Assembly: GCA_047611265.1 (NCBI GenBank)
Contig: JBLFWM010000004.1
Span: 4,771 to 68,770, forward strand
Length of the DNA: 64,000 bases
Origin: Gammaproteobacteria bacterium
GTDB lineage: Bacteria; Pseudomonadota; Gammaproteobacteria; GCA-002705445; GCA-002716945
Reading direction: 5' to 3'
The first letter of the stretch is position 1. Every line of letters begins with the position of its first letter. This document shows, in pieces, positions 4,679 through 29,474 of the stretch. Position numbers and translations under genes: made by a program. Under the pieces are notes generated by a model. It was given only the letters and a program-made list of their open reading frames with translations, made no database searches and was not told where the DNA came from.

Positions 4679-5818
4679 ATGAAAAGAATATTGGTAATTG
4701 GCGGCGGCATGGCTGGCTCAATTGTAGCAAACGGTCTTGCAAGAAAACTTAATACAGAATTAAATAATGGTACTACTGAAATAACTGTTATATCAGCAAC
4801 AGACAAACATCTTTATCAACCAGGACTATTATATTTAACTTTTGGGCGTGTGACTGAAAGTGAATTAATTAGAGACCAAAGAAGTATACTAGACAAACGT
4901 ATAAAATTTCATGTTGATCCGGCAACTAAAATTGATGCGGATGCTAAAAAAGTTACCACACAATCTGGGAAAACTCATGAATGTGATTATATGGTAATTG
5001 CTACTGGTTCTAGATTAGTTCCAGAAACTGTACCAGGGTTGGCAGAAGGAGCTCATAACTTCTATTCTGTAGAAGGTGCTAAGAAACTTAGAGATACATT
5101 AAAAGCATTTAAAGGTGGGAAAGTGGTCGTGAATGTTAATGCGCCACACAAATGCCCAGTAGCTCCAATAGAAATTACATGTATGTTGCATGATTTCTTA
5201 GGCGAACAAGGAGTTCTAGATAAATCAGAAATTATGTACACATATCCAGTGGGAAGAGTACATGCTATGCAACCAGTAGCAGATTGGGCTGCTCCAGAGT
5301 TTGAAAAGTTAGGTATAAAAAGCGAGACACTCTTTAATACTAAAGAAGTTGATCCAGTCAAAAAAACAATTACATCGGAAGAAGGCGTTACATTAAACTA
5401 TGACCTTCTAATAACTATACCTCCTCATAAAGGACAACAAGTGGTTGAGGATTCAATAGAGGGAGCGGCTGGTGGCTGGGCTCCAACTGATAAGAAAAAA
5501 TTATATCTTGAAGGAAAAACAGATGTATTTATTTGTGGCGATACTACAAATATTCCAATATCAAAAGCTGGATCAACAGCACATTTTGAAGCGGATACAA
5601 TTGTTGATAATATAAGCTCACTAATTAAAGAAGGTACAATGGCTAGAGACTATGACGGTAAAGTGTTTTGCTTCATAGAAACAGGTAAAGAAGAGGGTTC
5701 GTATGTTTGGTTTAATTATACTACACCGCCGGCACCTGGTCTTCCAACCAAAGCTGTTCATAGATTTAAATTAGCGTATAACAAGATGTACTGGTTATCT
5801 GCTAAAGGAATGTTATAG
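4679..5818 (+). CDS. FAD-dependent pyridine nucleotide-disulfide oxidoreductase, sulfide:quinone oxidoreductase-like
   Basis: N-terminal dinucleotide fold VIGGGMAGS. KCPVAP motif resembling the SQR/FCSD conserved Cys region. C-terminal FICGDTT FAD motif. Sits between TusA and a DUF1641 gene. Confidence 0.55.
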   Translation: MKRILVIGGGMAGSIVANGLARKLNTELNNGTTEITVISATDKHLYQPGLLYLTFGRVTESELIRDQRSILDKRIKFHVDPATKIDADAKKVTTQSGKTHECDYMVIATGSRLVPETVPGLAEGAHNFYSVEGAKKLRDTLKAFKGGKVVVNVNAPHKCPVAPIEITCMLHDFLGEQGVLDKSEIMYTYPVGRVHAMQPVADWAAPEFEKLGIKSETLFNTKEVDPVKKTITSEEGVTLNYDLLITIPPHKGQQVVEDSIEGAAGGWAPTDKKKLYLEGKTDVFICGDTTNIPISKAGSTAHFEADTIVDNISSLIKEGTMARDYDGKVFCFIETGKEEGSYVWFNYTTPPAPGLPTKAVHRFKLAYNKMYWLSAKGML

Positions 5819-7301: not shown

Positions 7302-7920
7302 GTTAAAAAAGCCAAAGTTCTACAGTAATCATAGGTATAGACAGGGTCAAAATATAGCACAACCTTCAGAATCTAATGATAATATTAAAGAATTATTATT
7401 GAATAATAAATTAAATATTTTAGACATTGGATTTGGAACTGGGACTTCGACAAAAAATTTATACTCCAACGACAAGAATAACTATTTCTGCATTGAGTCA
7501 TATATGCAGGGAATAAATAATCTAAAAAAGTATGTGAAGCTAAATAAAATAAAAAATATATGCATTTTTTATGGGGACGCAACAAATATCATTAGTGAGA
7601 TATTGCCAGACGAATCTATTGATGAAATATTAATCTTTTTTCCAGATCCATGGCCAAAGACTAAACATCATAAGAGACGGTTAATAAATTCATATACCTT
7701 AAATCTATTTTTTAGCAAACTAAAAAAAGATGGAGTATTACATTTTGCAACTGACCATATAATTTATGCATATAGCGTTAGATATATGCTTGAAAAATTT
7801 ACCGGTCAAAAAATATTATTTAATGCTAATAGAAGAAGAAGACCTATTACAAATTATGAAAAAAGAGGGTTGAGAAGAAAAAATTTTGTATTTGATTTAA
7901 TTGTTAAAAAAAGTAATTAA
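7291..7920 (+). CDS. trmB: tRNA (guanine46-N7)-methyltransferase
   Basis: SAM motif LDIGFGTG and the [15 protein letters not shown] motif. Start taken at the internal ATG at 7291 (MMNEL...), overlapping the thiG stop. Confidence 0.85.
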
Positions 7921-9254
7921 TCAGCTAGTTGTTTTTTAAAAAATAAAATATGGATTAAGAATCCAAAAATAATACCAGTCCAAATGTGAGTTGTGATTCC
8001 TTCATAAATTTCAATAGATAGCATCGGGAATAGCAAGGTACTCCCAAAAGTAATCCACGTAATAACTCCTAGCCTTTTACTTTCAGAATATAATTTACTC
8101 ATTTCTTTGATTCTAATCAAAGGAATAACAGCAAAAATAACAATGATTCCAAGGGTTGCCTGCGGCAAACTGAATAGTAGTGGAGTTGCAAATAGCAATG
8201 TTATGCCTACAACCAGCATTGTCACAATTGATGAAAGGCCGCTATAAGCTCCACTTGCTTCGTTGACTGCTGATCTCGAAAATGAGCCAGAAACTGGAAT
8301 GCTTCCACTAACACTAGAACTAATATTCGCTATACCCTGACCTAGAAGTTCTTGGTTAGAGTCAACCGGAGTTGGGTTTTTATATAGCTCTACTCCGTTT
8401 GAATCCTTGGGAGGTTTTTTAGAATATAGCTGCTTAGCTATAGCTATAGCTTCCATAAAACCAACAAATGCAATAATAAGCGTATGTATTATAAGCATTG
8501 GTATGGATCCATTGAAAATTTTATAATCAGGAATTTTAAAATCTGGCAAACCAGGCGGTATATATCCAACAATTGGCCCAGAATAAGATTGTGCTAATGA
8601 ATAGGATATTGATAAAAGAACTGCAAAAAATACAGCTAAATTACTTAATGTCATAAATTTAGTAAATTTATATTTAATTAAGTACATTAAAAATAAAACT
8701 AATACTGATAAACCCAGTGACTCAATATTAATAGGAGTACTTGCAAGTAGTGCTTCTGGATTAGCTAACTGTCCTAATGATATTTTAGGCATTCCAAAAA
8801 TCTTGCTTAACTGAGACGCAGATATGATTAATGCTGCAGCTGATGTAAATCCTAATAATACATGCTCTGGGATTGTATCAAAAACTTTTCCAGCTTTTAA
8901 GAGGGCTAAGGTAATCTGAAATATGCCGACCGTGAATGCCAGAATAATAGCATAAAATATATATAATGAACTATCACCTGCAGACAAAGATGTTACCGCA
9001 ACTGATGTCAAAAGACATACCATTGCAACAGGTCCTGTAGCAAGATATCTAGATGATCCAAAAAGAGCTGCAATGCCAACTGGTATTAGGGCAGCATATA
9101 ATCCATAAACTGGAGATACATCTGCTAATGCTGCATATGCCATTGACTGAGGAATGATAATCATAGCTATTGTTGTGCCAGCAATAACATCTCTTAAAAT
9201 ATAATTTCTAGTGGATAATGATTCAGGTAACCATGTGCTGAAATTAAATAACAT
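7917..9254 (-). CDS. SulP-family inorganic anion transporter core, apparently without a STAS domain
   Basis: Polytopic membrane protein. N-terminal segment ILRDVIAGTTIAMIIIPQSMAYAALA matches the SulP signature. 445 aa is too short for a C-terminal STAS. Confidence 0.65.
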   Translation of the reverse strand: MLFNFSTWLPESLSTRNYILRDVIAGTTIAMIIIPQSMAYAALADVSPVYGLYAALIPVGIAALFGSSRYLATGPVAMVCLLTSVAVTSLSAGDSSLYIFYAIILAFTVGIFQITLALLKAGKVFDTIPEHVLLGFTSAAALIISASQLSKIFGMPKISLGQLANPEALLASTPINIESLGLSVLVLFLMYLIKYKFTKFMTLSNLAVFFAVLLSISYSLAQSYSGPIVGYIPPGLPDFKIPDYKIFNGSIPMLIIHTLIIAFVGFMEAIAIAKQLYSKKPPKDSNGVELYKNPTPVDSNQELLGQGIANISSSVSGSIPVSGSFSRSAVNEASGAYSGLSSIVTMLVVGITLLFATPLLFSLPQATLGIIVIFAVIPLIRIKEMSKLYSESKRLGVITWITFGSTLLFPMLSIEIYEGITTHIWTGIIFGFLIHILFFKKQLAD

Positions 9255-10871: not shown

Positions 10872-11423
10872 TTAATTATTCGCATCCTGTTTAATCACAT
10901 AGTCTACAGCATCGTTCAGATCATTAAACATTGGTATGTTATATTTAGAATTATTTTCAATATTTTTGCCATTCCCAGTTCTAAGACCAAGAGGTTTACA
11001 CTTAGATGCAAGCGATGCATCTATATCTCTTGGTGAATCACCAATGGAAAAACATTTATCCAAAGAAATATTTAATCTTCCAGCTATTTCACTAAACATC
11101 CCAGTTCCTGGTTTTCTATTCACGCATTCATCTGTTGGTAAGCTTGGGCAGTAAAGGACTGCTAAAATAGATCCTCCAATTCTGCTTATTTGACTGAGCA
11201 TCTTAAGATTAATCTCAATAAAATCATTGTATGATATGATGCCTCTACCTAAACCAGACTGGTTGCTGATGATAATAATCTGGTATTCATGCTCTGTTAA
11301 TTTTTTAATTGCATTTAAGCTCTCAGGTATCAAATTCCACTCATCTGCAGATTTTATATAATGAGGAGAGTCAATATTTATAACACCATCCCTATCAAGA
11401 ATTATATATTTTTGATTATTCAC
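10872..11423 (-). CDS. gmhB: D-glycero-D-manno-heptose 1,7-bisphosphate phosphatase (HAD family)
   Basis: HAD motif [10 protein letters not shown]. The SNQSG motif and overall length are typical of GmhB. The conserved location after the glycyl-tRNA synthetase gene matches Pseudomonas-type synteny. Confidence 0.8.
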
Positions 11424-19331: not shown

Positions 19332-20522
19332 ATGAATATTGCTATGAAAAATCTAAAACATTACCTGCTAACCCTATTTTTACTGTCTCAATTAAGTGTC
19401 ACAACAACTACTATTAAAGCTGATGAAACTGTGCCAGCACAGAATATAGCTCAATTCGTAGATGTATTTAAACGAATAAAAGAGCAATACGTAGAGGAAA
19501 TAGATGATGAGAAGCTCTTTAAGGCAGCTATTAAAGGCATGGTTTCAGGACTTGACCCGCATTCAGCCTTTCTTACAAATGATGACTTCAATGAGTTGAA
19601 AATTGGAACAACAGGAAAGTTTGGTGGCCTTGGTATTGAAATAACTACTGAAGATGGCTATGTAAAAGTAATAACTCCAATAGATGATACTCCTGCAGAA
19701 AGAGCTGGGATTTTAGCTGGTGACTTAATTGTTAAGGTTGGAGATGAATCTGTTAAAAACATGGAAATTGGTGATGCAGTAAAACTAATGAGAGGTGAGC
19801 CTGGGACAAAAATCCAAATTACTGTTCTAAGAAAAAAAGTAGATGAACCTTTAATATTTGATATCACACGACAAATAATTGTATCTAAGGGAATTAAATT
19901 TAAAGTTTTTGATAATATTGGCTATGTTAGACTTGCAAGCTTTCAATCAAATTCAACAAATGACCTAAAAAGTGCAATATATAAATTAAAAAAATTAAGT
20001 CCAACACCAATAGATGGTCTTATACTGGATTTACGTAATAACCCAGGCGGGGTACTAGGTGCTGCTGTAGGGATTACCGATCTATTTTTGCAAGAAGGAA
20101 AAATAGTTTATACAAATGGAAGGACAATGAATTCTAAGCTTGAATACTTTGCTACTCCTCAGGACATATTAAATGGTTTACCCTTGGTTATTATGATTAA
20201 TGGGGGTTCTGCATCTGCTTCAGAAATTGTGGCAGGCGCTCTTCAAGATAATAAAAGAGCAACAATAGTTGGGAATAAGTCCTACGGCAAAGCTTCTGTT
20301 CAAACTATTCAAGAATTATCAGATGGCTCTGCTCTTAAATTAACTACGGCTCGCTACTATACTCCTTTAGGTAGAGATATTCATACATTAGGAATAACTC
20401 CAGACATTATTGTTGAATATGAAAAAGATAAATTAGTTGAATTACCTGACCCATATAATGCAGATAACCAGTTATTTGAAACTATTAAAATAGCTACAGG
20501 GATGAAAGCTGTTTCTCAATAA
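19332..20522 (+). CDS. ctpA: carboxy-terminal processing protease (S41 family)
   Basis: Signal peptide, PDZ domain, S41 catalytic region (NGGSASASEIVAGAL... K). Confidence 0.85.
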   Translation: MNIAMKNLKHYLLTLFLLSQLSVTTTTIKADETVPAQNIAQFVDVFKRIKEQYVEEIDDEKLFKAAIKGMVSGLDPHSAFLTNDDFNELKIGTTGKFGGLGIEITTEDGYVKVITPIDDTPAERAGILAGDLIVKVGDESVKNMEIGDAVKLMRGEPGTKIQITVLRKKVDEPLIFDITRQIIVSKGIKFKVFDNIGYVRLASFQSNSTNDLKSAIYKLKKLSPTPIDGLILDLRNNPGGVLGAAVGITDLFLQEGKIVYTNGRTMNSKLEYFATPQDILNGLPLVIMINGGSASASEIVAGALQDNKRATIVGNKSYGKASVQTIQELSDGSALKLTTARYYTPLGRDIHTLGITPDIIVEYEKDKLVELPDPYNADNQLFETIKIATGMKAVSQ

Positions 20523-20537
20523 ACTATAAGATATAAA

Positions 20538-21545
20538 ATGTTGGAAATTATTAAGTTAATATCGGTTTTACTGACATTTTTATTCATCACTGGATGTTCT
20601 AATACGAAAATAAATCCATGTAATGGCGACACGAAAGTTTACTCCAACATAAGCATGGAGACAGATAAAAAGATATGTTTCAAATCTATAGACAGTTATG
20701 ATTTAAATTATAAGAATAAACCTGAAATAATAATCTATGGGAATCTTATTTTTCCTAAAACTAAAAAAGATAAATACAATGCTGTTATATTATCTCATGG
20801 TTCTGGAGGCTTAAGAAAATACCATGACCGTTATGTAGATCTATTGACTAACAATGGATATGTTGTTTTTCAAATTGACCATTATCTTGGTAGAGATATA
20901 AAGTATGATAAAACTTTTTCTAAAGTGTCTGGAATAACTTTTATGAATGATTCGTTCAAGGCTCTTGAATTAATTAAAACTCATCCAAAAATTAATAAAG
21001 TTGCTTATATTGGCTGGTCTCAAGGTGGAGTAGGCCCAATACTATCTCACTTTAGCCAAGTTACAGATCTTATCAATAGTAGTATGAGCTTATTTGATGC
21101 CAGTGTTGCGATTTACCCATACTGTGGGTTCACATTCAATAAATTAACTAAAACAAATAATCCTTTATTAATATTAACTGGGCGCGATGATGATTTAACG
21201 CCAGAGCAGGCATGTATTAATATTTATAAAAAGTTTTCTACAAACGAAAAGAAAATTAAGCATATTTCTTTAGAGGGTGCTAGACATGGTTATGATAACC
21301 CTTTTTTATTTTTTGGGTTTACATTTGATAAGCTCCCAAGTCTACATATTATTAACGATGAATGTACCTTAACAATATCTAATATTGGAGAAATGAAAAC
21401 AATCTCTAATAAGAAAATTTCAGGACCCAAAGAATCAGCTAAATTATTAGATAAGTGTTCAACCAAAGGCGTGTCTGTAAAATATAGTCCATATGCTACT
21501 GAAAAAACATATATTGAAATAATAGAATTTTTAAAGAGAATTTAA
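20538..21545 (+). CDS. lipoprotein, alpha/beta-hydrolase (dienelactone hydrolase-like)
   Basis: Lipobox FITGCSN, nucleophile elbow GWSQGG, HGSGG oxyanion region. Confidence 0.5.
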   Translation: MLEIIKLISVLLTFLFITGCSNTKINPCNGDTKVYSNISMETDKKICFKSIDSYDLNYKNKPEIIIYGNLIFPKTKKDKYNAVILSHGSGGLRKYHDRYVDLLTNNGYVVFQIDHYLGRDIKYDKTFSKVSGITFMNDSFKALELIKTHPKINKVAYIGWSQGGVGPILSHFSQVTDLINSSMSLFDASVAIYPYCGFTFNKLTKTNNPLLILTGRDDDLTPEQACINIYKKFSTNEKKIKHISLEGARHGYDNPFLFFGFTFDKLPSLHIINDECTLTISNIGEMKTISNKKISGPKESAKLLDKCSTKGVSVKYSPYATEKTYIEIIEFLKRI

Positions 21546-22443: not shown

Positions 22444-22812
22444 ATGCAAAAAATAACAAATAAGTTAATACTGCTTGCTACTTTATATAGCTTTCCTCTA
22501 ATCATTATTGCAGACACAATATCTAGACCTAACTCTAATAATAAATCAGGGATTACTAAAAAAACAGAAGAGCAAAAAGAAAATTCATTTATAAATAGAG
22601 TAATTAAAGGAAAATTAGATATTCCCTCTTTTCAAAAAAATAAAGATTTAGATCAGATAAAATCTGATATTATAGAGCTTAAGAAAGAAGCAAGCTCTAA
22701 TGAAAAAATTTTAACCCAAATTAAAATGCTTTCAGACTTAAAAAATGAGGGCATATTAACTGAAAGTGAATTTAATAATAAAAAGAAAGTATTGTTAAAT
22801 AAAATAAAGTAA
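22444..22812 (+). CDS. secreted protein with C-terminal SHOCT domain
   Basis: Signal peptide. C-terminal LKNEGILTESEFNNKKKVLL matches the SHOCT motif. Confidence 0.45.
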   Translation: MQKITNKLILLATLYSFPLIIIADTISRPNSNNKSGITKKTEEQKENSFINRVIKGKLDIPSFQKNKDLDQIKSDIIELKKEASSNEKILTQIKMLSDLKNEGILTESEFNNKKKVLLNKIK

Positions 22813-22819
22813 TAAAATT

Positions 22820-23362
22820 ATGAATAATAGATTAATAACCCAACTCAAAGATAATTTAAGAGTGATTCCTAACTTTCCAAAAAAAGGAATTATGTTTCAA
22901 GATATATTTTCACTAATTGAAAATCCTATTCTACTGAAAAAAATTATCAGTGAGATTACAAAAGTAATAAAAAAAGAAAAAATAACAAAAATAATTGGTA
23001 TTGATGCTCGAGGATTTATTTTTGGCTCAATTGTCTCCTATAATAACAATATACCTTTTATTCCTGTGAGGAAAAAAGGCAAGCTTCCAGGACATGTATA
23101 CAAAAAGAAATATAAGCTAGAGTATGGTTTTGATCAAGTAGAGATTCAAAAAAACAGTATATTAAAAAATGATAAAGTTTTAATTGTTGATGATTTGATT
23201 GCTACAGGAGGCACGGCAATTGCTGCGGCTAAACTAGTAGAGAATATGACAACAAAGAAAATAAAATTTATGTTTGTTATAGACCTCTATAATCTAGATG
23301 GTGCTAAATCTCTAAAAAATAAAGGGTATAAAGTTTTTAGTATAATGAAAGCCGAAGGTTAA
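22820..23362 (+). CDS. apt: adenine phosphoribosyltransferase
   Basis: PRPP-binding motif VLIVDDLIATGGTAIAA. 180 aa. Confidence 0.85.
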   Translation: MNNRLITQLKDNLRVIPNFPKKGIMFQDIFSLIENPILLKKIISEITKVIKKEKITKIIGIDARGFIFGSIVSYNNNIPFIPVRKKGKLPGHVYKKKYKLEYGFDQVEIQKNSILKNDKVLIVDDLIATGGTAIAAAKLVENMTTKKIKFMFVIDLYNLDGAKSLKNKGYKVFSIMKAEG

Positions 23363-23363
23363 T

Positions 23364-24248
23364 ATGTCAAATAAAAAACTAGGTGTCATTGGTGGAAGTG
23401 GACTATATGAAATAGATGGGTCTTCTGAGTCTAAATGGGAGACCATTACAACACCGTGGGGAAATCCCTCTGATCAGATATTAACTTTGAAATTTGATAA
23501 TCAAGAAGTTTGTTTTATCCCAAGACATGGAAGAGGTCATGTAATTTCGCCATCAAATATTAATTTTAGAGCTAATATAGATGCGTTAAAACAAAAAGGG
23601 GTTACCGATATAATATCTATATCAGCCGTAGGTTCACTTAAAGAAGAATTACCGCCAGGAAAATTTGTTTTAATAGATCAGTTTATAGATAGAACCTTTG
23701 CTAGAACTAAAACATTTTTTGATGATGAGATTGTAGCTCATGTTTCCATGGCTCAACCAACAAGTACAAACCTAATTGAATTATGTGGGTCAGCTTTGAA
23801 TAAATTAGAGGTAGATTATCAAAAAGGAGGAACCTATTTAGCAATGGAAGGACCACAGTTTTCAAGCCGGGCAGAATCAAACCTATATCGGCAATGGGAC
23901 ATAGATGTCATAGGTATGACCAATATGCCTGAGGCTAAATTAGCAAAAGAGGCAGAAATAAGATATTGTACTGTTGCCATGGTGACAGACTTTGATTGTT
24001 GGCATCCTAATCATGATCATGTAGACATAGACATGATAATTAAAGTATTAACAGATAATGCTGGCAAAGCAAAAGATATGCTTAAAGATATAATACAAAA
24101 TTTTGAATTTACTTTGGATAAAAATGATAACACCCATATGTGCCTTGATACAGCTATAATTACTGACCCAACTATGATGACAAAAAAAACTAAAAATAAA
24201 TTAAAAACAATTGCAGGCAGAGTGCTATTTCCAAATAATGAAAATTAA
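23364..24248 (+). CDS. mtnP: S-methyl-5'-thioadenosine phosphorylase
   Basis: PNP/MTAP family (GVIGGSGLY... phosphate-binding region). Adjacent to mtnA. Confidence 0.8.
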   Translation: MSNKKLGVIGGSGLYEIDGSSESKWETITTPWGNPSDQILTLKFDNQEVCFIPRHGRGHVISPSNINFRANIDALKQKGVTDIISISAVGSLKEELPPGKFVLIDQFIDRTFARTKTFFDDEIVAHVSMAQPTSTNLIELCGSALNKLEVDYQKGGTYLAMEGPQFSSRAESNLYRQWDIDVIGMTNMPEAKLAKEAEIRYCTVAMVTDFDCWHPNHDHVDIDMIIKVLTDNAGKAKDMLKDIIQNFEFTLDKNDNTHMCLDTAIITDPTMMTKKTKNKLKTIAGRVLFPNNEN

Positions 24249-25320
24249 TGACAAGAGTTATAAAACTATATGGTTCAATGAAACAGATAAATCTGTTGAA
24301 ATTATAGACCAAACTAAATTACCACATTCTCTTAATATTATATCTTTAAAAAATTTAACTGATGTAATCATAGCTATTAAAACCATGCAAGTTAGGGGCG
24401 CTCCTTTAATAGGTGGGGCAGCAGCTTATGGGATAGTATTGGCAATGAAGGAAGATCCTACAGATGATAATTTAACCAATGCCTCAAAAAAGCTAATTGA
24501 ATCTAGACCAACTGCTGTTAATTTAAAGTCATCTATAGTGATCATGAATAATGAGCTGAAAGAGCTGCCTAAACAAGAACGTTTTGAAGCATCATTAGCT
24601 TTAGCCAAATATATTTGTCTTGAAGATGAGAAATGTTGTGAGCTAATTGGGCTTCATGGGAAAAAAATAATTTCAGATTTTATAGAGAACAATGATCTTG
24701 AAGAAATAAATATTCTTACACATTGTAATGCTGGGTGGCTAGCCACAATTGATTGGGGCACTGCTACATCGCCAATATATCATGCAATTAAAGATGGTAT
24801 TAAAGTACATGTTTGGGTAGATGAAACTAGGCCAAGGAACCAAGGAGCATCTTTGACTTCATATGAATTAACAAATGAAGGGGTAGCTAATACAATTATA
24901 TCAGATAATGCCGGAGGCTTACTCATGAGGGAAGGTAAAGTTGATATGTGCATAACAGGCACTGATAGAGTTTTATCTAATGGAGATATAATAAATAAAA
25001 TAGGAACATACTTAAAAGCACTAGCTGCTTTTGATAACAATATTCCATTCTATGTTGCCCTCCCAGGGACAACAATTGACTATGAACATAATAAAGTTAC
25101 AAAAAATATGATTGAATATAGATCTCCAGAAGAATTAACGCATGTAGATGGGATAGACAATAAAGGTAATTTAAAGAAAGTAAGGATATTTCCAAAAGAC
25201 TGTAATGTATTAAATCCAGCTTTTGACATTACTCCTGGAAAACTTATAACCGGACTAATTACTGAAAAAGGTATTTTTGAAAGCACTACTAATGGTTTAA
25301 TAAGGTATCGTTCTGAATAA
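24238..25320 (+). CDS. mtnA: S-methyl-5-thioribose-1-phosphate isomerase
   Basis: eIF-2B alpha/beta/delta-like MtnA sequence. Start at the ATG at 24238, overlapping the mtnP stop. Confidence 0.85.
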   Translation: MKINDKSYKTIWFNETDKSVEIIDQTKLPHSLNIISLKNLTDVIIAIKTMQVRGAPLIGGAAAYGIVLAMKEDPTDDNLTNASKKLIESRPTAVNLKSSIVIMNNELKELPKQERFEASLALAKYICLEDEKCCELIGLHGKKIISDFIENNDLEEINILTHCNAGWLATIDWGTATSPIYHAIKDGIKVHVWVDETRPRNQGASLTSYELTNEGVANTIISDNAGGLLMREGKVDMCITGTDRVLSNGDIINKIGTYLKALAAFDNNIPFYVALPGTTIDYEHNKVTKNMIEYRSPEELTHVDGIDNKGNLKKVRIFPKDCNVLNPAFDITPGKLITGLITEKGIFESTTNGLIRYRSE

Positions 25321-25354
25321 GCTATGATTTTTTCTCATGAGATAGACTAATTAA

Positions 25355-27379
25355 TTATCTCATTGAAGCAGCTATATTTCCTCCGTCAACAGTCAAGACA
25401 GCGCCGGTTGATTTTTGTGAAAGAGCTAGATGGAGAAAAGCTAATGCAACATCATATGCAGTTACTTCATCCAAAAGAAGATTACCTTTCATGTAATCAT
25501 CTATGGAAACTTGTCTAGCTTTAGCTCTAGTTTTTATCATTGATAAATTTAGTATGCCGCTTTTAATTCTATCCGCATTCACACCATTTGACCTAATACC
25601 AAATTTTCCATAATCTAGGGCATATTGTTTACATAAACCAAGAAGAGCAGTTTTAGGTAATCCATAAGATCCAAAATTAAGCCCTGGATTAACTGACTGC
25701 TTAGAAATATTAAAGAGCAAACACCCTTGAGATTTTTGATGGAGCATTACTTTAACTGCTTCAGAAGCACATATTTGATGAGAGAAAAAATTATCATCAA
25801 AAGATTTTTTTAAATTTACATCTGATATGTCAGCTATAGGTCCACTAGATACAGATCCAGCATTAGAAACTAAAATATCTATACCCCCAAAAGTCTCACA
25901 GATTTCTTTATACGCATTGCCAACACTCTTACGATTTGTTACATCTGCAAACAAACATAGATCTGGAATATGTAATTGAGTCTCTTTAATTTTACTCTTG
26001 TCATAATCAAGTAATACTACTTCAGCGCCTTGTTGTTTAAATATTTTATATGTTTCAAATCCTATAGTGCCCAGGCTCCCAGTAATAACAACGACTTTAC
26101 CCTGTAATGATTTTTTAGACTTATTAACTTTAGCTTGTTCTAGAGACCAATATTCAATATCAAAAATATCTTTTTCTTTGATGGTTTGGTAAACAGAAGT
26201 TTCTTGAACAGATGCAATAACTCTAGCATTAGTTTCTGCCACATCTCCAGCTATCAATGATGCATTATAGCTATTCCCAACACTAAACATTCCTACACCT
26301 GTTACATAAATAATTCTAGGATAAGGGTCTAACATGGTTAAATTTTTTCCCTTACTATATTTTTTATAATAAGTTATATATTCAGATTTATATTTAGTCA
26401 CAGCTCTCTTGGCTTTAATTCTAAATGTATTAATATCATCATTAGAAGTAAGCTCTACGATTAAAGGATATGGCTTAATTCGAATAACATGGTCTGGGGT
26501 CACCGTGCCTAGATGTGAGTATTTATTAACATCAACACCATTCATAAAATATTTAATATCTTTGTTAACTCTGTAATTAATAATAAATGAATTATCTTTT
26601 TCAGTTAATAAACCCCTAAGGACAGGTGCAATTTCAGATGGATTGAGTCTAGTTTTTGATAATTTGATTTGTTTTATTTTTTTATTTTTCATTTTCTTGA
26701 TCGCTAATTCGGCAAGAGTGACATTTTTTATCATTAGATCATAAGCTTCTTTGCCGCTATTGCTAAATGTAAATATTCCATGGTTAAGAAGTATTAAACA
26801 GTTTACCTCAGGATTCTTTTGATAAATCTCAAAAACCTTTTTAGCTAATAAAAATCCTGGCATAATATATGGTACATAGCCAACCTCAGGACCAAATATT
26901 TTTTTACATACCTTTAGGGCGTTCGGTCTATTTGTAATATCTAATATTGCATCTGCATGCGTATGATCTACAAATTTATGTGGGAGAAAAGCATGAAGAA
27001 AAGTTTCTACAGATGGATTTGGTGATTTTATATTTAATAAATTTCTCTTTTGAAAACTAACCATATCCTCATCTGATAGCTTATTTTTACTAATCATACT
27101 TAATAAAGGGTCTAACTTCACTGCTGGTAAACCTTCTGGCTCTATATCACCCATGTCCCACCCACTACCTTTTACACAGAGGACTTTATAAGTTTTGGAA
27201 TCTATGTCTTTTGCCTCAGTCTTTACAGATGTATTTCCTCCTCCATGGAGAACTAGCTTTTTATTTTGTCCCAATAACTGAGTTGTATAAACTCTGAGGG
27301 CTAAATCTTCTGTATGGCCTCGTGAAGTATATTTTTTAATAAACTGTTTTGCGGTTTGTTCTGACCAATTATTTTTCAT
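25355..27379 (-). CDS. bifunctional class II aldolase (N-terminal) / short-chain dehydrogenase (C-terminal) fusion, YuxG/RhaEW family
   Basis: N-terminal LVLHGGGNTSVK...VKGSGWDMGDIEPEGLPAVKL signature of the rhamnulose-1-P-aldolase/SDR family. C-terminal SDR with TGSLGTIG Rossmann motif and YGLPK catalytic Y-x3-K. Confidence 0.8.
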   Translation of the reverse strand: MKNNWSEQTAKQFIKKYTSRGHTEDLALRVYTTQLLGQNKKLVLHGGGNTSVKTEAKDIDSKTYKVLCVKGSGWDMGDIEPEGLPAVKLDPLLSMISKNKLSDEDMVSFQKRNLLNIKSPNPSVETFLHAFLPHKFVDHTHADAILDITNRPNALKVCKKIFGPEVGYVPYIMPGFLLAKKVFEIYQKNPEVNCLILLNHGIFTFSNSGKEAYDLMIKNVTLAELAIKKMKNKKIKQIKLSKTRLNPSEIAPVLRGLLTEKDNSFIINYRVNKDIKYFMNGVDVNKYSHLGTVTPDHVIRIKPYPLIVELTSNDDINTFRIKAKRAVTKYKSEYITYYKKYSKGKNLTMLDPYPRIIYVTGVGMFSVGNSYNASLIAGDVAETNARVIASVQETSVYQTIKEKDIFDIEYWSLEQAKVNKSKKSLQGKVVVITGSLGTIGFETYKIFKQQGAEVVLLDYDKSKIKETQLHIPDLCLFADVTNRKSVGNAYKEICETFGGIDILVSNAGSVSSGPIADISDVNLKKSFDDNFFSHQICASEAVKVMLHQKSQGCLLFNISKQSVNPGLNFGSYGLPKTALLGLCKQYALDYGKFGIRSNGVNADRIKSGILNLSMIKTRAKARQVSIDDYMKGNLLLDEVTAYDVALAFLHLALSQKSTGAVLTVDGGNIAASMR

Positions 27380-27441: not shown

Positions 27442-28440
27442 CTATGCTTTTTGCAATTTTGCCCAGAGTTTATCTCTCTGATATGTATGGGCATTACAAT
27501 CTTTGCAACTGCCAATTGACTGGTAATCAAGTCTTAGTTGTTTATTTCTATACTCATTAATTACATCACCTTGCCATATATCTTGCAAAGATAATTTTTT
27601 AATATCACCAACTTGCTCATTTAGCTCATGATCTAGACAACAAAGACCAACCCTGCCATCAGCTCCAATTACCATTTCTTCCCAGGGGTGTGTACATGCA
27701 AAATCAAATTTTTCATTTTGACTTTCTTTTAGCTTGTCTTGGTGTTTTGCTTTTTTATGAGAGTCATCATAATTTAATTCATCTTGAGTTCCGCCCCAAG
27801 TATTATAATGATTAACATCTACCTTATCTGCAAAATTTTTCCAGTATTCAACAAATTTTTCAACTTCATTCTTGGTTGGCTTCATATCTATAATAGTGAC
27901 TCTAGTCTGAGGATATTTTTTATTTAATGATTTTTTATATTTTAAAAAATATTTAACATTAGTAGTAACTACATCAAAATCAAGTTTTACTCTTATTCCT
28001 TCAAAAGTAGATTTGGTTAGCCCGTCAATATCAAAATTAATAACATCCAATAAATCTTCATCAAGTAATATTCTTGATCTCTTCTCTCCAAGCAGCTGAG
28101 CATTAGTAGATAAGTATAATTTAACTTTTGGCAGTTCTTTTCTAATAATTCTTATCTTCTCAATCATTTTTTTATCGACAGTAGAATCACCCATCCAAAA
28201 GAGATTAATTTTCTTTAATGGTTTTTTTTTGCAATCACTTATAATCTTATTTAAGATCTCAAAGGACATATTCTCTTTTTTCCTATCCATTTCTGGTTGT
28301 GGGCACATTATACATTTTGCGTTACACGCACTGGTAAATTCTATGGAAAGTATTTTAGGGAAAACTTCTTTATGTTTTCTTATGGTATTGAATAATTTCT
28401 TTTTAAAGAATTTTGTAATATTACTTTTTATATCTATCAT
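27442..28440 (-). CDS. radical SAM protein with Cys-rich C-terminal (SPASM/twitch-like) region
   Basis: CNAKCIMC (CxxxCxxC) cluster at residues about 39-46. Additional Cys pairs near the C-terminus (GLCCLD, SCKDC). Confidence 0.7.
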   Translation of the reverse strand: MIDIKSNITKFFKKKLFNTIRKHKEVFPKILSIEFTSACNAKCIMCPQPEMDRKKENMSFEILNKIISDCKKKPLKKINLFWMGDSTVDKKMIEKIRIIRKELPKVKLYLSTNAQLLGEKRSRILLDEDLLDVINFDIDGLTKSTFEGIRVKLDFDVVTTNVKYFLKYKKSLNKKYPQTRVTIIDMKPTKNEVEKFVEYWKNFADKVDVNHYNTWGGTQDELNYDDSHKKAKHQDKLKESQNEKFDFACTHPWEEMVIGADGRVGLCCLDHELNEQVGDIKKLSLQDIWQGDVINEYRNKQLRLDYQSIGSCKDCNAHTYQRDKLWAKLQKA

Positions 28441-28512: not shown

Positions 28513-29094
28513 ATGTGTGGAAGATTCACCCTTACCAAAAAAGAAGAAGTAAAAAATATTTATAATATTGATATCCAGCCAAACTTTAATGTGGCACCTA
28601 CATCTGATGTATTAGTGCTGATCAAGAATTCATTATCTGGTCTAGTATTGCCTAACCTTGTAAAATGGGAATACTCGCCTAGTTGGGCTAAAAAACCAAT
28701 GCATATTTTTAATGCTAGATCTGAAACTATGCATGAAAAGCCATCATTTAAAGAAGCCATGAGATGTACCTTCATAGTTGACGGGTGGTACGAATGGCTT
28801 AGAGAGGATAATAAAAAAATTCCCTACTATCATAGTTTAGGAAATAATATTTTCCACTTAGGTGGGATATATAATAAAAATGGATGCGCTATTGTCACAA
28901 AAGAATCAATAGGGAAACTCAAAGAGGTACACCACAGACAACCTGTTTTACTAGATCATAATGAAGTTGAGCCATGGCTCTCGGGGAATAATATATTTGA
29001 CAGTAAAATAACAAATAATATATCGCTACATGAAGTTAGCACGTATATGAATTCAGTAAAGAATAATGATGGAAAATGTATTGAAAGAATTTAA
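28513..29094 (+). CDS. yedK: SOS-response-associated peptidase (SRAP/YedK), abasic-site processing protein
   Basis: N-terminal MCGRF with catalytic Cys2, and a conserved SRAP fold sequence. Confidence 0.8.
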   Translation: MCGRFTLTKKEEVKNIYNIDIQPNFNVAPTSDVLVLIKNSLSGLVLPNLVKWEYSPSWAKKPMHIFNARSETMHEKPSFKEAMRCTFIVDGWYEWLREDNKKIPYYHSLGNNIFHLGGIYNKNGCAIVTKESIGKLKEVHHRQPVLLDHNEVEPWLSGNNIFDSKITNNISLHEVSTYMNSVKNNDGKCIERI

Positions 29095-29474
29095 CTAGGA
29101 ATATTTTTGTATCCGTTATTTTTTTTAAATGATTGCAGCTTTTCATCTAATGAAATAAATTCTTTAAGGGCAGGATCGGAATCATATTTTTCACCTCCTC
29201 TTTTAATAGCAAAATGGGCTGCACTTCGGTCTTTACAAATTTCACTATATGCATTGCGCCCAATAGAATCTAAAGAAAGATAAAATTCTTCACAATCTAC
29301 TAAAACTCCTTTCCCAATCTTATCCTTATCTTTATTAGTTAGACGTCTAAAACTGCCAGTCAACTCTTTAACTTGACTAAGAGTCCAACTTTTACCAAGA
29401 TTAGATTTTAGGTCTCTTTCCTTTCGTAACTGATTGTCCCAATCAATTACTCTATCCTTACTGATCTCTGTCAT
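29091..29474 (-). CDS. hypothetical protein
   Basis: 127-aa charged protein, convergent with yedK and overlapping it by 4 nt. No known motif. Confidence 0.3.
   Translation of the reverse strand: MTEISKDRVIDWDNQLRKERDLKSNLGKSWTLSQVKELTGSFRRLTNKDKDKIGKGVLVDCEEFYLSLDSIGRNAYSEICKDRSAAHFAIKRGGEKYDSDPALKEFISLDEKLQSFKKNNGYKNIPS

What the first reader, a model, noticed from the sequence alone, without database searches (positions are those of the whole stretch)
22820..27379. apt-mtnP-mtnA operon faces a class-II-aldolase/SDR fusion: candidate single-polypeptide DHAP shunt for MTA and 5'-deoxyadenosine salvage
Adenine PRTase, MTA phosphorylase and MTR-1-P isomerase are overlapping or co-oriented (stops overlap starts). 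No mtnB/C/D/E-like gene follows them. Instead the convergent neighbour is a 674-aa YuxG/RhaEW-type fusion of a class II aldolase with a short-chain dehydrogenase. In the described DHAP shunt (Rhodospirillum, ExPEC, Bacillus thuringiensis), MtnP and MtnA are followed by a class II aldolase (Ald2) that cleaves 5-methylthioribulose-1-P, or 5-deoxyribulose-1-P, to DHAP plus an aldehyde. The aldehyde is then reduced or oxidised by a separate dehydrogenase. Here both activities would be fused in one protein, analogous to rhamnulose-1-P aldolase/lactaldehyde dehydrogenase.
Basis: inference. Interest (0 to 1): 0.6.

Follow-up and report, generated by a model that had tools for sequence, protein, structure and literature searches.

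The report
Fused aldolase-dehydrogenase variant of DHAP shunt
A marine bacterium keeps its genes for recycling the SAM by-products methylthioadenosine and 5'-deoxyadenosine next to a two-enzyme fusion protein that probably performs the last two steps, and the same pairing recurs across many ocean and soil bacteria, apparently including SAR11, yet I found no paper that describes it.

Summary
A 674-aa class II aldolase/SDR fusion (25355-27379, - strand) converges on it across a 34-nt spacer. No mtnB/C/D-like gene lies in the 64-kb window.

In 27 dereplicated loci that carry relatives of the fusion, MtnA (22/27) and MtnP (18/27) are the most consistently co-located families. Four unrelated gene layouts show the link:
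- convergent in marine Gammaproteobacteria and in a contig labelled Ca. Pelagibacter;
- a co-directional mtnP-mtnA-fusion cassette in Rhodospirillales-like Alphaproteobacteria;
- mtnA-fusion in Ruegeria;
- mtnK-mtnA loci with an MtnR-like regulator on Rhizobiales plasmids.

The true rhamnose enzyme RhaEW is only about 32% identical and sits in rha loci. The aldolase domain is RhaE-like, not an Ald2/FucA orthologue, so this is a non-orthologous replacement of Ald2. By analogy with RhaEW, I predict NAD+-dependent conversion of 5-methylthioribulose-1-P or 5-deoxyribulose-1-P to DHAP plus methylthioacetate or acetate.

Caveats: the predicted substrate has different C4 stereochemistry from rhamnulose-1-P; two nested sub-branches lack mtn neighbours; whole-genome absence of mtnBCD was not tested. 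Verdict: new variant of a known pathway, interest about 0.6.

The parts
22444..22812 (+). Small SHOCT-domain protein (122 aa), 7 nt upstream of apt and co-directional. It may be the first gene of the transcription unit. No functional link is shown.
   Evidence: Pfam SHOCT 27.8 bits. Conserved upstream of apt in close relatives.
22820..23362 (+). apt, adenine phosphoribosyltransferase. Recycles the adenine released by MtnP.
   Evidence: NF002634 204.4 bits (cutoff 170) and TIGR01090 197.6 (cutoff 185.85).
23364..24248 (+). mtnP, 5'-methylthioadenosine phosphorylase. Expected also to accept 5'-deoxyadenosine.
   Evidence: NF006492 439.3 bits (cutoff 437) and TIGR01694 302.8 (cutoff 274.85). Pfam PNP_UDP_1.
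24238..25320 (+). mtnA, 5-methylthioribose-1-phosphate isomerase. Uses the ATG start chosen by gene callers; the longest ORF starts at a TTG at 24211. Overlaps mtnP by 11 nt.
   Evidence: NF004326 420.1 bits (cutoff 271) and TIGR00512 378.7 (cutoff 279). A 360-aa gene was called on identical contigs.
26693..27379 (-). Fusion protein aa 1-229: RhaE-type class II aldolase domain. Acid/base residue E125 and Zn ligands H139, H141 and H200.
   Evidence: Pfam Aldolase_II 68.3 bits. PDB 3m4r E 6e-51, Foldseek TM 0.91. hhalign against E. coli RhaD aligns E125/H139/H141/H200 with E117/H141/H143/H212. Residues conserved in 90-91 of 91 sequences.
26120..26692 (-). Fusion protein aa 230-420: conserved middle module of unknown role. 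It always accompanies the aldolase domain and contains the near-invariant motif T294-P-D-H-V-I-R-x-K-P303.
   Evidence: Invariant columns. The N-module aa 1-420 matches as one unit in 542 cluster representatives at E<=1e-30. AF2 pLDDT is below 50 at aa 289-302.
25355..26119 (-). Fusion protein aa 421-674 plus stop codon: classical SDR domain. Motifs TGxxxGxG 433-440, D458 (NAD preference), NAG 506-508, N530, S559 and Y572xxxK576.
   Evidence: Pfam adh_short 101.6 and adh_short_C2 104.6 bits. Motifs invariant. The clade-specific Y-G-L-P-K replaces Y-G-T-S/A-K of RhaEW and the L102/L103 branch.
27442..28440 (-). Radical SAM/SPASM protein, 62 nt upstream of the fusion and co-directional. It is a possible source of 5'-deoxyadenosine. 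Membership of the system is uncertain.
   Evidence: Pfam Radical_SAM + SPASM. Adjacent to the mtn/fusion cluster in every marine gammaproteobacterial locus examined, in two layouts. Distant homologues lie in heptosyltransferase/glycosyltransferase clusters without mtn genes.

Best explanation

Proposed steps:
1. MtnP phosphorolyses the nucleoside to adenine plus 5-methylthioribose-1-P or 5-deoxyribose-1-P. Apt recaptures the adenine.
2. MtnA isomerises the sugar phosphate to the ribulose-1-P form.
3. The 674-aa fusion then does two things on one polypeptide. Its N-terminal Zn-dependent, RhaE-type class II aldolase module cleaves the ribulose-1-P into DHAP plus 2-(methylthio)acetaldehyde or acetaldehyde.
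4. Its C-terminal NAD-dependent SDR domain converts the reactive aldehyde immediately. The most likely direction is oxidation to 2-(methylthio)acetate or acetate, as the homologous RhaEW oxidises lactaldehyde to lactate.

The fusion is therefore a non-orthologous replacement of the FucA-like Ald2/DrdA aldolase, joined to the hitherto unidentified aldehyde-processing step.

Shown: gene identities, domain architecture, intact catalytic residues, and conserved gene linkage. Inferred: substrate, aldol cleavage, direction of the redox step, and physiological role.
For: 1. Gene identities pass curated cutoffs.
2. Linkage in dereplicated loci. In 27 dereplicated loci with relatives of the fusion, MtnA (22/27) and MtnP (18/27) are the top co-located families, and MtnK is present in the Rhizobiales loci.
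3. Operon-like spacing. mtnA sits directly upstream on the same strand with a gap of at most about 50 nt in 17 loci.
4. The linkage occurs in four layouts with unrelated flanks:
- convergent in marine Gammaproteobacteria and in a 27-30% GC Ca. Pelagibacter contig, where a SAM-decarboxylase/spermidine-synthase gene (an MTA producer) is the other neighbour;
- petABC-mtnP-mtnA-fusion in Alphaproteobacteria;
- mtnA-fusion in Ruegeria;
- an MtnR-like regulator, the fusion, a sugar ABC transporter and mtnK-mtnA on Rhizobiales plasmids.
5. Contrast with the rhamnose enzyme. The genuine rhamnose enzyme is only 32-33% identical and lies among rhaI, rhaM, rhaS and a kinase gene. The window protein misses the TIGR02632 cutoff.
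6. Intact catalytic machinery. Aldolase residues E125/H139/H141/H200 and SDR residues G-rich loop/D458/N530/S559/Y572/K576 are conserved in 90-91 of 91 sequences.
7. Biochemical precedent. RhaEW turns rhamnulose-1-P into DHAP plus lactate with NAD+, shows no activity with NADH, and forms no DHAP without NAD+ (PMC3870299).
8. Altered active-site neighbourhood. Clade-specific substitutions flank the SDR catalytic Tyr and Lys (YGLPK against YGT[S/A]K), consistent with a changed aldehyde substrate.
9. No mtnB/C/D-like gene lies in the window.
Against: - No biochemical or genetic data exist for any member of this clade.
- Stereochemistry. Rhamnulose-1-P is 3R,4S, whereas D-ribulose-1-P derivatives are 3R,4R, the FucA-type configuration (established carbohydrate chemistry). 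A RhaE-type scaffold would need changed C4 specificity.
- Orientation. In the window itself the fusion is convergent with mtnA, not co-transcribed.
- Nested sub-branches without mtn neighbours. These are the Reyranella group (51 loci) and the Ensifer/Rhizobium L102/L103 branch, which sits beside an ABC transporter and a GpsA-like dehydrogenase. Bootstrap support for excluding L102/L103 from the mtn-linked set is only 32%.
- The MtnP score only just passes its best equivalog cutoff (439.3 against 437).
- The AF2 model has modest confidence (pLDDT 72) and gives no information on the substrate pocket.
Confidence: 0.6

Rival explanations
1. Same pathway and same aldolase step, but the SDR domain reduces the aldehyde. 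The products would be 2-(methylthio)ethanol or ethanol, as seen in vivo in Rhodospirillum, Rhodopseudomonas and E. coli, rather than the acid.
For: All characterised DHAP shunts end in 2-methylthioethanol or ethanol, and the responsible alcohol dehydrogenase is still unidentified (PMC13474568; PMC5893883; PMC10986504). SDRs are typically carbonyl reductases or alcohol dehydrogenases. Residues next to the catalytic Tyr/Lys differ from RhaEW.
Against: The only characterised homologue, RhaEW, works with NAD+ and not NADH, and yields the acid. The invariant D458 after strand beta-2 indicates NAD rather than NADP (established SDR cofactor rule). That fits an oxidative catabolic role but does not prove it.
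Confidence: 0.2
2. The fusion acts on a different sugar phosphate, for example another 6-deoxy or 5-deoxy ketose-1-P. Its proximity to mtn genes would then reflect shared regulation or inherited synteny rather than a shared pathway.
For: The family is diverse: 542 clusters at E<=1e-30. The nested L102/L103 branch sits beside an ABC sugar transporter and a G3P-dehydrogenase-like gene without mtn genes. Reyranella loci show no mtn genes within 10 kb. Many alphaproteobacterial loci share petABC synteny, so they are not independent observations.
Against: The linkage recurs in four layouts with unrelated flanks in different classes, with operon-like spacing. In the minimal three-gene cassette and in the marine loci, no kinase, isomerase or transporter for another sugar accompanies the fusion.
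Confidence: 0.12
3. The aldolase-like domain works as an MtnB-like dehydratase, or another non-aldol Zn enzyme, on MTRu-1-P, and the SDR reduces the product. This would be a new methionine-salvage branch rather than a DHAP shunt.
For: MtnB belongs to the same class II aldolase fold and uses the same His3-Zn and acid/base set (PMC6302742). Catalytic residues therefore cannot discriminate between the two activities. No mtnB lies in the window.
Against: The N-domain has no detectable sequence match to MtnB/APIP (4m6r) even at E<=10. Its closest characterised relative is an aldolase. No downstream MtnC, MtnD or transaminase genes accompany it in any locus.
Confidence: 0.05
4. It is an ordinary RhaEW orthologue (rhamnulose-1-P aldolase/lactaldehyde dehydrogenase) that happens to lie next to mtnA.
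For: It has the same domain architecture, and full-length alignment to TIGR02632 scores 424 bits. JGI labels some homologues 'rhamnose utilization protein RhaD'.
Against: It scores below the TIGR02632 cutoff of 568. It is 32-33% identical to a genuine rha-locus enzyme, on a long separate branch. No rhaA/I, rhaB/K, rhaM or rhamnose transporter appears in the window or in any of the roughly 90 related loci, while these genes flank the true enzyme. Rodionova et al. state that RhaEW orthologues are always within rha loci.
Confidence: 0.03

Closest known systems
DHAP shunt (MtnP or MtnN+MtnK, MtnA, Ald2/DrdA) of Rhodospirillum rubrum, Rhodopseudomonas palustris, ExPEC E. coli and Bacillus thuringiensis
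   Same: MtnP and MtnA are present and tightly linked, and a class II aldolase-superfamily gene is linked to them. In Rhizobiales relatives the locus also carries mtnK, a transporter and a homologue of the E. coli repressor MtnR/YjhU (30% identity, E 1e-52). The predicted outputs are DHAP plus a C2 fragment.
   Different: The aldolase is not the FucA-like Ald2/DrdA. E. coli S88 Ald2 hits FucA at 8e-81 and DrdA 6btd at 8e-33 but not 3m4r. The window's domain hits only 3m4r. The aldehyde-processing enzyme is covalently fused here, whereas in the known shunts it is separate and unidentified. The predicted product is the acid rather than the alcohol.
RhaEW / YuxG, bifunctional L-rhamnulose-1-phosphate aldolase / L-lactaldehyde dehydrogenase (TIGR02632; Rodionova et al. 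2013)
   Same: Same three-part architecture (RhaE-type aldolase, middle module, SDR). Same Zn and SDR catalytic residues and the same NAD-type Asp. Homologous over the full length.
   Different: About 32-33% identity and a separate long branch. Below the equivalog cutoff. Never found in rha loci; instead linked to mtnP/mtnK-mtnA. Position 125 is Glu here and Asp in the Rhizobium RhaEW. The SDR motif is YGLPK against YGTAK. The substrate would need 3R,4R rather than 3R,4S configuration.
PDB 3m4r, N-terminal class II aldolase domain of a conserved protein from Thermoplasma acidophilum (structural genomics, function unknown)
   Same: It is the only solved structure detectable by sequence (E 6e-51, 41% identity) and the best structural match (TM 0.91).
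   Different: Archaeal, domain-only construct. No function is assigned, and its genomic context was not examined.
Fused methionine-salvage enzymes MtnBD (Tetrahymena) and DEP1 (Arabidopsis MtnB-MtnC)
   Same: A class II aldolase-fold domain acting on MTRu-1-P is fused to the next enzyme of the pathway.
   Different: Those domains are dehydratases feeding the oxygen-dependent methionine salvage pathway, and their fusion partners are a dioxygenase or a HAD phosphatase, not an SDR.

Membership tests
DHAP shunt (functional system) | MTA/5'-deoxyadenosine phosphorylase MtnP (or MtnN + MtnK) | tested here: met
   NF006492 439.3 bits against cutoff 437; TIGR01694 302.8 against 274.85.
DHAP shunt (functional system) | MtnA 5-methylthioribose-1-P / 5-deoxyribose-1-P isomerase linked to the aldolase gene | tested here: met
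   NF004326 420 against 271. Adjacent to the fusion here and in 22/27 dereplicated related loci.
DHAP shunt (functional system) | Ald2/DrdA-type (FucA-like) class II aldolase, EC 4.1.2.62 | tested here: not met
   The N-domain has no phmmer hit to FucA, DrdA (6btd) or other FucA-like chains at E<=10. hhalign gives no alignment to E. coli Ald2 or FucA. No other class II aldolase lies in the window.
DHAP shunt (functional system) | Cleavage of MTRu-1-P / 5-deoxyribulose-1-P to DHAP plus aldehyde | not testable with these tools
   Requires an enzyme assay. Only context and residue conservation are available.
RhaEW / TIGR02632 bifunctional rhamnulose-1-P aldolase/SDR | Architecture: RhaE-type aldolase + middle module + SDR, about 680 aa | tested here: met
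   Pfam domains. Full-length alignment to the PRK08324/TIGR02632 models.
RhaEW / TIGR02632 bifunctional rhamnulose-1-P aldolase/SDR | Score at or above the curated equivalog cutoff | tested here: not met
   TIGR02632 423.7 against 567.75; NF006189 412.6 against 634. The genuine Rhizobium enzyme scores 1195 and 1288.
RhaEW / TIGR02632 bifunctional rhamnulose-1-P aldolase/SDR | Encoded within a rhamnose utilisation locus (rhaA/I, rhaB/K, rhaM, transporter) | tested here: not met
   None in the window or in related loci. These genes are present around the true enzyme.
NCBIfam NF006192 (PRK08324.1-6) bifunctional aldolase/short-chain dehydrogenase, no specific function assigned | Score at or above the curated cutoff | tested here: met
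   838.3 bits against 639. The same holds for the Pelagibacter, alphaproteobacterial, Rhizobiales and Reyranella relatives.
Class II (Zn) aldolase superfamily, PF00596 | His-His-His metal site plus acidic catalytic residue | tested here: met
   E125, H139, H141 and H200 align with RhaD E117, H141, H143 and H212. Conserved in 90-91/91 sequences.
Classical SDR | TGxxxGxG, NAG, and Asn-Ser-Tyr-Lys tetrad; acidic residue after beta-2 for NAD | tested here: met
   T433-G440, N506-G508, N530, S559, Y572, K576 and D458 are invariant or nearly so.
MtnB (methylthioribulose-1-P dehydratase) | Sequence membership of the MtnB/APIP family | tested here: not met
   No match to APIP 4m6r or any other MtnB-like chain at E<=10. 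The MtnB NCBIfam model was not inspected individually.

The most novel reading that the evidence does not exclude
A third, previously unrecognised architecture of the DHAP shunt is widespread in marine and soil Proteobacteria, apparently including SAR11. In it, a RhaE-type aldolase has been re-specified from 3R,4S to 3R,4R ketose-1-phosphates and channels its aldehyde directly into a fused NAD+-dependent SDR. MTA sulfur would then leave as 2-(methylthio)acetate rather than 2-methylthioethanol. That would identify the missing aldehyde-handling enzyme of the shunt and predict a new organosulfur product from abundant reduced-sulfur-dependent bacterioplankton.
Probability: 0.4. Interest if true: 0.75.

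Novelty: new variant of a known kind. Interest (0 to 1): 0.62.

Why it matters
Three consequences follow if the reading is right.

1. **The missing step of the shunt.** A 2026 review still calls the enzyme that handles 2-methylthioacetaldehyde unknown and lists only two pathway variants. Both use the FucA-like Ald2 (PMC13474568). This fusion offers a dedicated candidate for that step and an independent evolutionary solution for the aldolase step.

2. **Ecology.** The cluster occurs in very abundant marine lineages. These are gammaproteobacterial MAGs from TARA and polar metagenomes, and contigs labelled Ca. Pelagibacter, where it sits next to spermidine synthase. It therefore bears on how streamlined bacterioplankton that depend on reduced sulfur dispose of or recycle MTA and 5'-deoxyadenosine, and on which small sulfur or C2 compounds they release.

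3. **Annotation and enzymology.** Thousands of proteins now named 'bifunctional aldolase/short-chain dehydrogenase' or 'rhamnose utilization protein RhaD' would gain a testable function. The enzyme would be a natural example of switched C4 stereospecificity in DHAP aldolases.

Tried and rejected
- **Riboswitch or other RNA control.** No Rfam match at E<=1 in 21.5-29.5 kb.
- **Bidirectional terminator between mtnA and the fusion.** Only an AU-rich 9-bp hairpin, no better than shuffled sequence (z 0.48).
- **Radical SAM/SPASM gene as an integral part of the system.** Adjacency holds in all marine gammaproteobacterial loci seen. More distant family members lie in heptosyltransferase/glycosyltransferase clusters without mtn genes. 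I kept it only as a possible lineage-specific link.
- **DLH-family hydrolase as a shared neighbour in alpha and gamma loci.** The proteins are unrelated at sequence level (E 1.3).
- **Monophyly of mtn-linked fusions.** Not robust: 32% bootstrap once the L102/L103 branch is added. I do not claim a clean functional clade, only a well-supported marine gamma + Pelagibacter subclade (100%).
- **NCBIfam models as clade markers.** NF006192 is matched by all branches and is not specific.
- **Reading North et al. 2020 (Mol Microbiol 113:923).** I wanted to check whether the fusion was noticed there, but the paper is not held.

Full report
**1. What is in the window**

- apt, 22820-23362: NF002634 204 bits, cutoff 170.
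- mtnP, 23364-24248: NF006492 439.3 bits against 437; TIGR01694 302.8 against 274.85.
- mtnA, ATG at 24238 to 25320 (the longest ORF starts at 24211): NF004326 420 against 271; TIGR00512 379 against 279.

These three genes form a compact + strand unit. apt and mtnP are separated by one base, and mtnP and mtnA overlap by 11 nt. A small SHOCT-domain ORF sits 7 nt upstream of apt.

A 674-aa ORF converges on mtnA from the - strand across a 34-nt spacer (25355-27379). It has a Pfam Aldolase_II domain at aa 33-226 and an SDR domain from about aa 428. It passes the generic NCBIfam model NF006192 'bifunctional aldolase/short-chain dehydrogenase' (838 bits against 639). It fails the rhamnulose-1-P aldolase/SDR equivalogs: TIGR02632 424 against 568, and NF006189 413 against 634.

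A radical SAM/SPASM gene (27442-28440) lies 62 nt upstream of the fusion on the same strand.

I found no riboswitch and no convincing terminator in the convergent spacer.

Pfam scans of the remaining window ORFs found no ARD cupin, no enolase-phosphatase and no second class II aldolase. The only small HAD protein (10872-11423) has a PNK3P/HAD profile, which I read as GmhB/HisB-like rather than MtnC-like.

The window otherwise holds housekeeping genes. These include dnaA-dnaN-recF-gyrB and the atp operon, so it spans the chromosomal origin region. The DNA is 28-37% G+C, about 33% overall. Identical copies of the fusion occur on TARA and polar marine metagenome contigs. The nearest genome records are MAGs labelled Gammaproteobacteria.

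**2. Is the neighbourhood meaningful?**

I fetched 80 loci that encode relatives of the fusion from species-representative genomes. I added loci from protein look-ups and annotated plasmids, and located the window's proteins in them by tblastn.

After dereplication to 27 loci, all-against-all clustering of neighbouring ORFs was clear. MtnA (22/27) and MtnP (18/27) are the two most consistently co-located families. MtnK replaces MtnP in the Rhizobiales loci. In 17 loci mtnA ends no more than about 50 nt upstream of the fusion on the same strand.

The linkage appears in several layouts with unrelated flanking genes:
- **Marine Gammaproteobacteria.** (rSAM)-apt-mtnP-mtnA converges on the fusion (window; L011-L015; L108; L110).
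- **A Ca. Pelagibacter contig.** A 295-kb contig that NCBI labels Ca. Pelagibacter sp., at 27-30% G+C, carries a 67%-identical fusion. It is convergent with hyp249-mtnP-mtnA and has apt alongside. On its other side is a SAM-decarboxylase/spermidine-synthase gene, which is the cell's MTA producer.
- **Rhodospirillales-, Thalassospiraceae-, Defluviicoccus- and Kiloniellaceae-like Alphaproteobacteria.** They carry a self-contained co-directional mtnP-mtnA-fusion cassette. In L019 it lies between petABC and unrelated genes.
- **Ruegeria.** mtnA-fusion.
- **Plasmids of Brucella anthropi, Pararhizobium, Mariluticola and Ensifer.** The locus reads: sugar-binding regulator, fusion, sugar ABC transporter, then mtnK-mtnA-split transketolase-RuBisCO-like protein. 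The regulator is 30% identical over its full length (E 1e-52) to E. coli YjhU/MtnR. MtnR is the demonstrated repressor of the E. coli DHAP-shunt operon (PMC12632272).

By contrast, a 32%-identical fusion on a Rhizobium leguminosarum plasmid is annotated as the rhamnulose-1-P enzyme. It sits among rhaI, rhaM, rhaS, an FGGY kinase and a DeoR regulator. It scores 1195-1288 bits on the rhamnose equivalog models.

**3. Phylogeny and its limits**

In NJ trees rooted on that RhaEW, all sequences at least 43% identical to the window protein sit on one long branch. The marine gamma + Pelagibacter subclade has 100% bootstrap support. The Pelagibacter sequence nests among gammaproteobacterial ones, which suggests lateral transfer.

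Two nested groups lack mtn neighbours:
- A tight Reyranella/Enhydrobacter clade (51 loci), flanked by a Zn-ADH, TctC and TauD.
- An Ensifer/Rhizobium branch (L102/L103), flanked by a sugar-type ABC transporter and a GpsA-like glycerol-3-P dehydrogenase.

Monophyly of the mtn-linked set excluding L102/L103 has only 32% bootstrap support. The function may therefore have shifted within the clade, or the partner genes may lie elsewhere in those genomes. The GpsA-like neighbour is at least compatible with DHAP being a product in that branch too.

**4. The protein itself**

- **Aldolase module.** It is not an Ald2 orthologue. E. coli S88 Ald2 was retrieved next to mtnA. It matches FucA structures at 8e-81 and B. 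thuringiensis DrdA (6btd) at 8e-33. The window's N-terminal 420 aa match only one PDB sequence even at E<=10, namely 3m4r. This is 'the N-terminal class II aldolase domain of a conserved protein from Thermoplasma acidophilum', and it is also the best structural match to the AF2 model (TM 0.91).
- **Active site.** A profile of the N-domain aligns with E. coli RhaD (83% probability, E 8.5e-6). It aligns more weakly with AraD, and not with FucA or Ald2. The RhaD alignment places E125, H139, H141 and H200 on RhaD's E117, H141, H143 and H212, which are the catalytic acid/base and Zn ligands. These residues are conserved in 90-91 of 91 sequences.
- **Middle module.** A conserved module (aa 230-420, with a near-invariant TPDHVIRxKP motif) always accompanies the aldolase domain. 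The 420-aa N-module has 542 cluster representatives at E<=1e-30, mostly 650-710-aa fusions.
- **SDR domain.** It has an intact classical signature: TGxxxGxG, NAG, and N530/S559/Y572/K576. It also has an invariant Asp458 after strand beta-2, which by the established SDR cofactor rule indicates NAD rather than NADP.
- **Clade-specific positions.** Positions nearly invariant in the mtn-linked sequences but different in both L102/L103 and RhaEW cluster around the SDR catalytic residues. Examples are Y572-G-L-P-K against Y-G-T-S/A-K, Q535 and S526. One lies just after the third Zn ligand (F205 against W). This hints at altered substrate pockets, but the outgroup sample is small.

**5. Mechanism proposed**

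1. MtnP releases adenine, which Apt recaptures, and forms the ribose-1-P derivative.
2. MtnA makes 5-methylthioribulose-1-P or 5-deoxyribulose-1-P.
3. The fusion's aldolase module cleaves this to DHAP plus 2-(methylthio)acetaldehyde or acetaldehyde.
4. The fused SDR removes the reactive aldehyde.

For the direction of step 4, the only biochemical precedent is RhaEW. Chloroflexus RhaEW converts rhamnulose-1-P to DHAP and L-lactate with NAD+. It is inactive with NADH, and it yields no DHAP when NAD+ is omitted (PMC3870299). By analogy I predict oxidation to 2-(methylthio)acetate or acetate. Reduction to the alcohols seen in characterised shunts remains a live alternative.

The main chemical reservation concerns stereochemistry, from established carbohydrate chemistry. 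Rhamnulose-1-P is 3R,4S, whereas D-ribulose-1-P derivatives are 3R,4R. The latter is the configuration handled by FucA-type enzymes such as Ald2. A RhaE-type scaffold would therefore need altered C4 specificity.

**6. Comparison with the literature**

Full-text searches found no paper that connects aldolase/SDR fusions with MTA or 5'-deoxyadenosine metabolism or with SAR11. The search terms combined the DHAP shunt, 5-deoxyribose, methylthioribulose aldolase, bifunctional aldolase, short-chain dehydrogenase, SAR11, mtnA and mtnP.
- Beaudoin et al. 2018, Sekowska et al. 2018, Miller et al. 2018 and Huening et al. 2024/2025 mention only stand-alone Ald2/DrdA and the MtnBD/DEP1 fusions.
- A July 2026 review states that two DHAP-shunt variants are characterised, and that the enzyme reducing 2-methylthioacetaldehyde is unknown.
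- Rodionova et al. state that RhaEW orthologues are always in rha loci.
- North et al. 2020, which surveyed Ald2 distribution, could not be read. Prior notice of the fusion there cannot be excluded.

**7. Verdict**

Three corrections apply: only two steps are fused; the aldolase is RhaE-type rather than Ald2-type; and the acid is the more likely product.

It is best classed as a new variant of a known pathway, that is, a non-orthologous, fused replacement of Ald2 plus the missing aldehyde step. I put 0.6 on the substrate and aldolase assignment.

Not tested:
- enzyme activity;
- the direction of the redox step;
- genome-wide absence of mtnB/C/D or ald2;
- the function of the Reyranella and L102/L103 branches.

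Noticed in passing
window 27442-28440 (-); L013-L015, L108, L110: An uncharacterised radical SAM/SPASM protein travels with the mtn/fusion cluster in every marine gammaproteobacterial locus seen. It is either upstream of the fusion or the first gene of an rSAM-apt-mtnP-mtnA operon. Homologues at 38-63% identity lie instead in heptosyltransferase/glycosyltransferase clusters without mtn genes. It may be a local 5'-deoxyadenosine source, or simply a remnant of an LPS-gene neighbourhood.
   Followed up: partly
L093, L095, L097, L104 (Rhizobiales plasmids/chromids), e.g. L095 8765-14186: A conserved mtnK-mtnA-split transketolase (N and C halves)-RuBisCO-like protein operon lies beside a sugar ABC transporter, an MtnR-like regulator and the fusion. 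Two alternative fates for MTRu-1-P or 5-deoxyribulose-1-P (aldolase/SDR versus RLP/transketolase) appear to be encoded together.
   Followed up: partly
L102 and L103, 10001-12046 and flanks: A nested branch of the fusion family (43-44% identical to the window protein; it also passes NF006195) has no mtn genes nearby. In L103 it is flanked by a UgpC-type sugar ABC transporter and a GpsA-like glycerol-3-P dehydrogenase. L102 was probed only partly, with a SorC-like regulator found upstream. The substrate is unknown.
   Followed up: partly
L027-L090 Reyranella/Enhydrobacter loci, e.g. L053 7927-14399: Fifty-one closely related loci carry the fusion without mtnP, mtnA or mtnK within 10 kb. In the one locus scanned (L053) the neighbours are a Zn-ADH, a TctC receptor and a TauD-family dioxygenase. 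They share the clade-specific SDR motif YGLPK but have Met instead of Phe at position 205.
   Followed up: partly
L091 13974-14723 (-): In the Ca. Pelagibacter contig, a 249-aa ORF with no Pfam match is the first gene of the hyp-mtnP-mtnA unit. It is absent from the gammaproteobacterial and alphaproteobacterial clusters.
   Followed up: no
window 26471-26500 (fusion aa 294-303): The near-invariant motif T-P-D-H-V-I-R-x-K-P lies in the middle module (aa 230-420), whose role is unknown. AlphaFold confidence is below 50 exactly there. It could be an inter-domain or substrate/phosphate-binding loop.
   Followed up: no
window 20178-20318 (-): An Rfam match to Rickettsia sRNA47 (Rp_sR47) scores 60.2 bits against a gathering score of 60. 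It lies antisense inside the S41/CtpA peptidase gene (19332-20522). It is probably similarity to conserved coding sequence rather than an sRNA.
   Followed up: no
window 34558-58782: The genes glmS, glmU, the atp operon, parB, parA, rsmG, mnmG, mnmE, yidC and then dnaA-dnaN-recF-gyrB place the chromosomal replication origin region in the window. Only glmS, ATP synthase subunit a and dnaA were confirmed by Pfam; the other names are my reading of ORF sizes and order. Cumulative GC skew reaches its minimum at about 50-52 kb.
   Followed up: no
window 29091-29474 (-): A 127-aa protein passes the NCBIfam equivalog 'NOV3GF23 family terpene biosynthesis-related protein' (195.6 bits against 165). It is conserved near the cluster in close relatives.
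   Followed up: no
window 20538-21545 (+) and L019 12107-12919 (-): A dienelactone-hydrolase-family protein lies close to the fusion in both gammaproteobacterial and alphaproteobacterial loci. The two proteins show no significant similarity (BLASTP E 1.3), so the shared Pfam label is coincidental.
   Followed up: yes
window 4679-5818 (+) and 7917-9254 (-): A sulfide:quinone oxidoreductase/FCSD-like flavoprotein and a SulP-family sulfate permease lie upstream in the window. They hint at a sulfur-oxidising or sulfur-handling lifestyle for this low-GC marine gammaproteobacterium.
   Followed up: no
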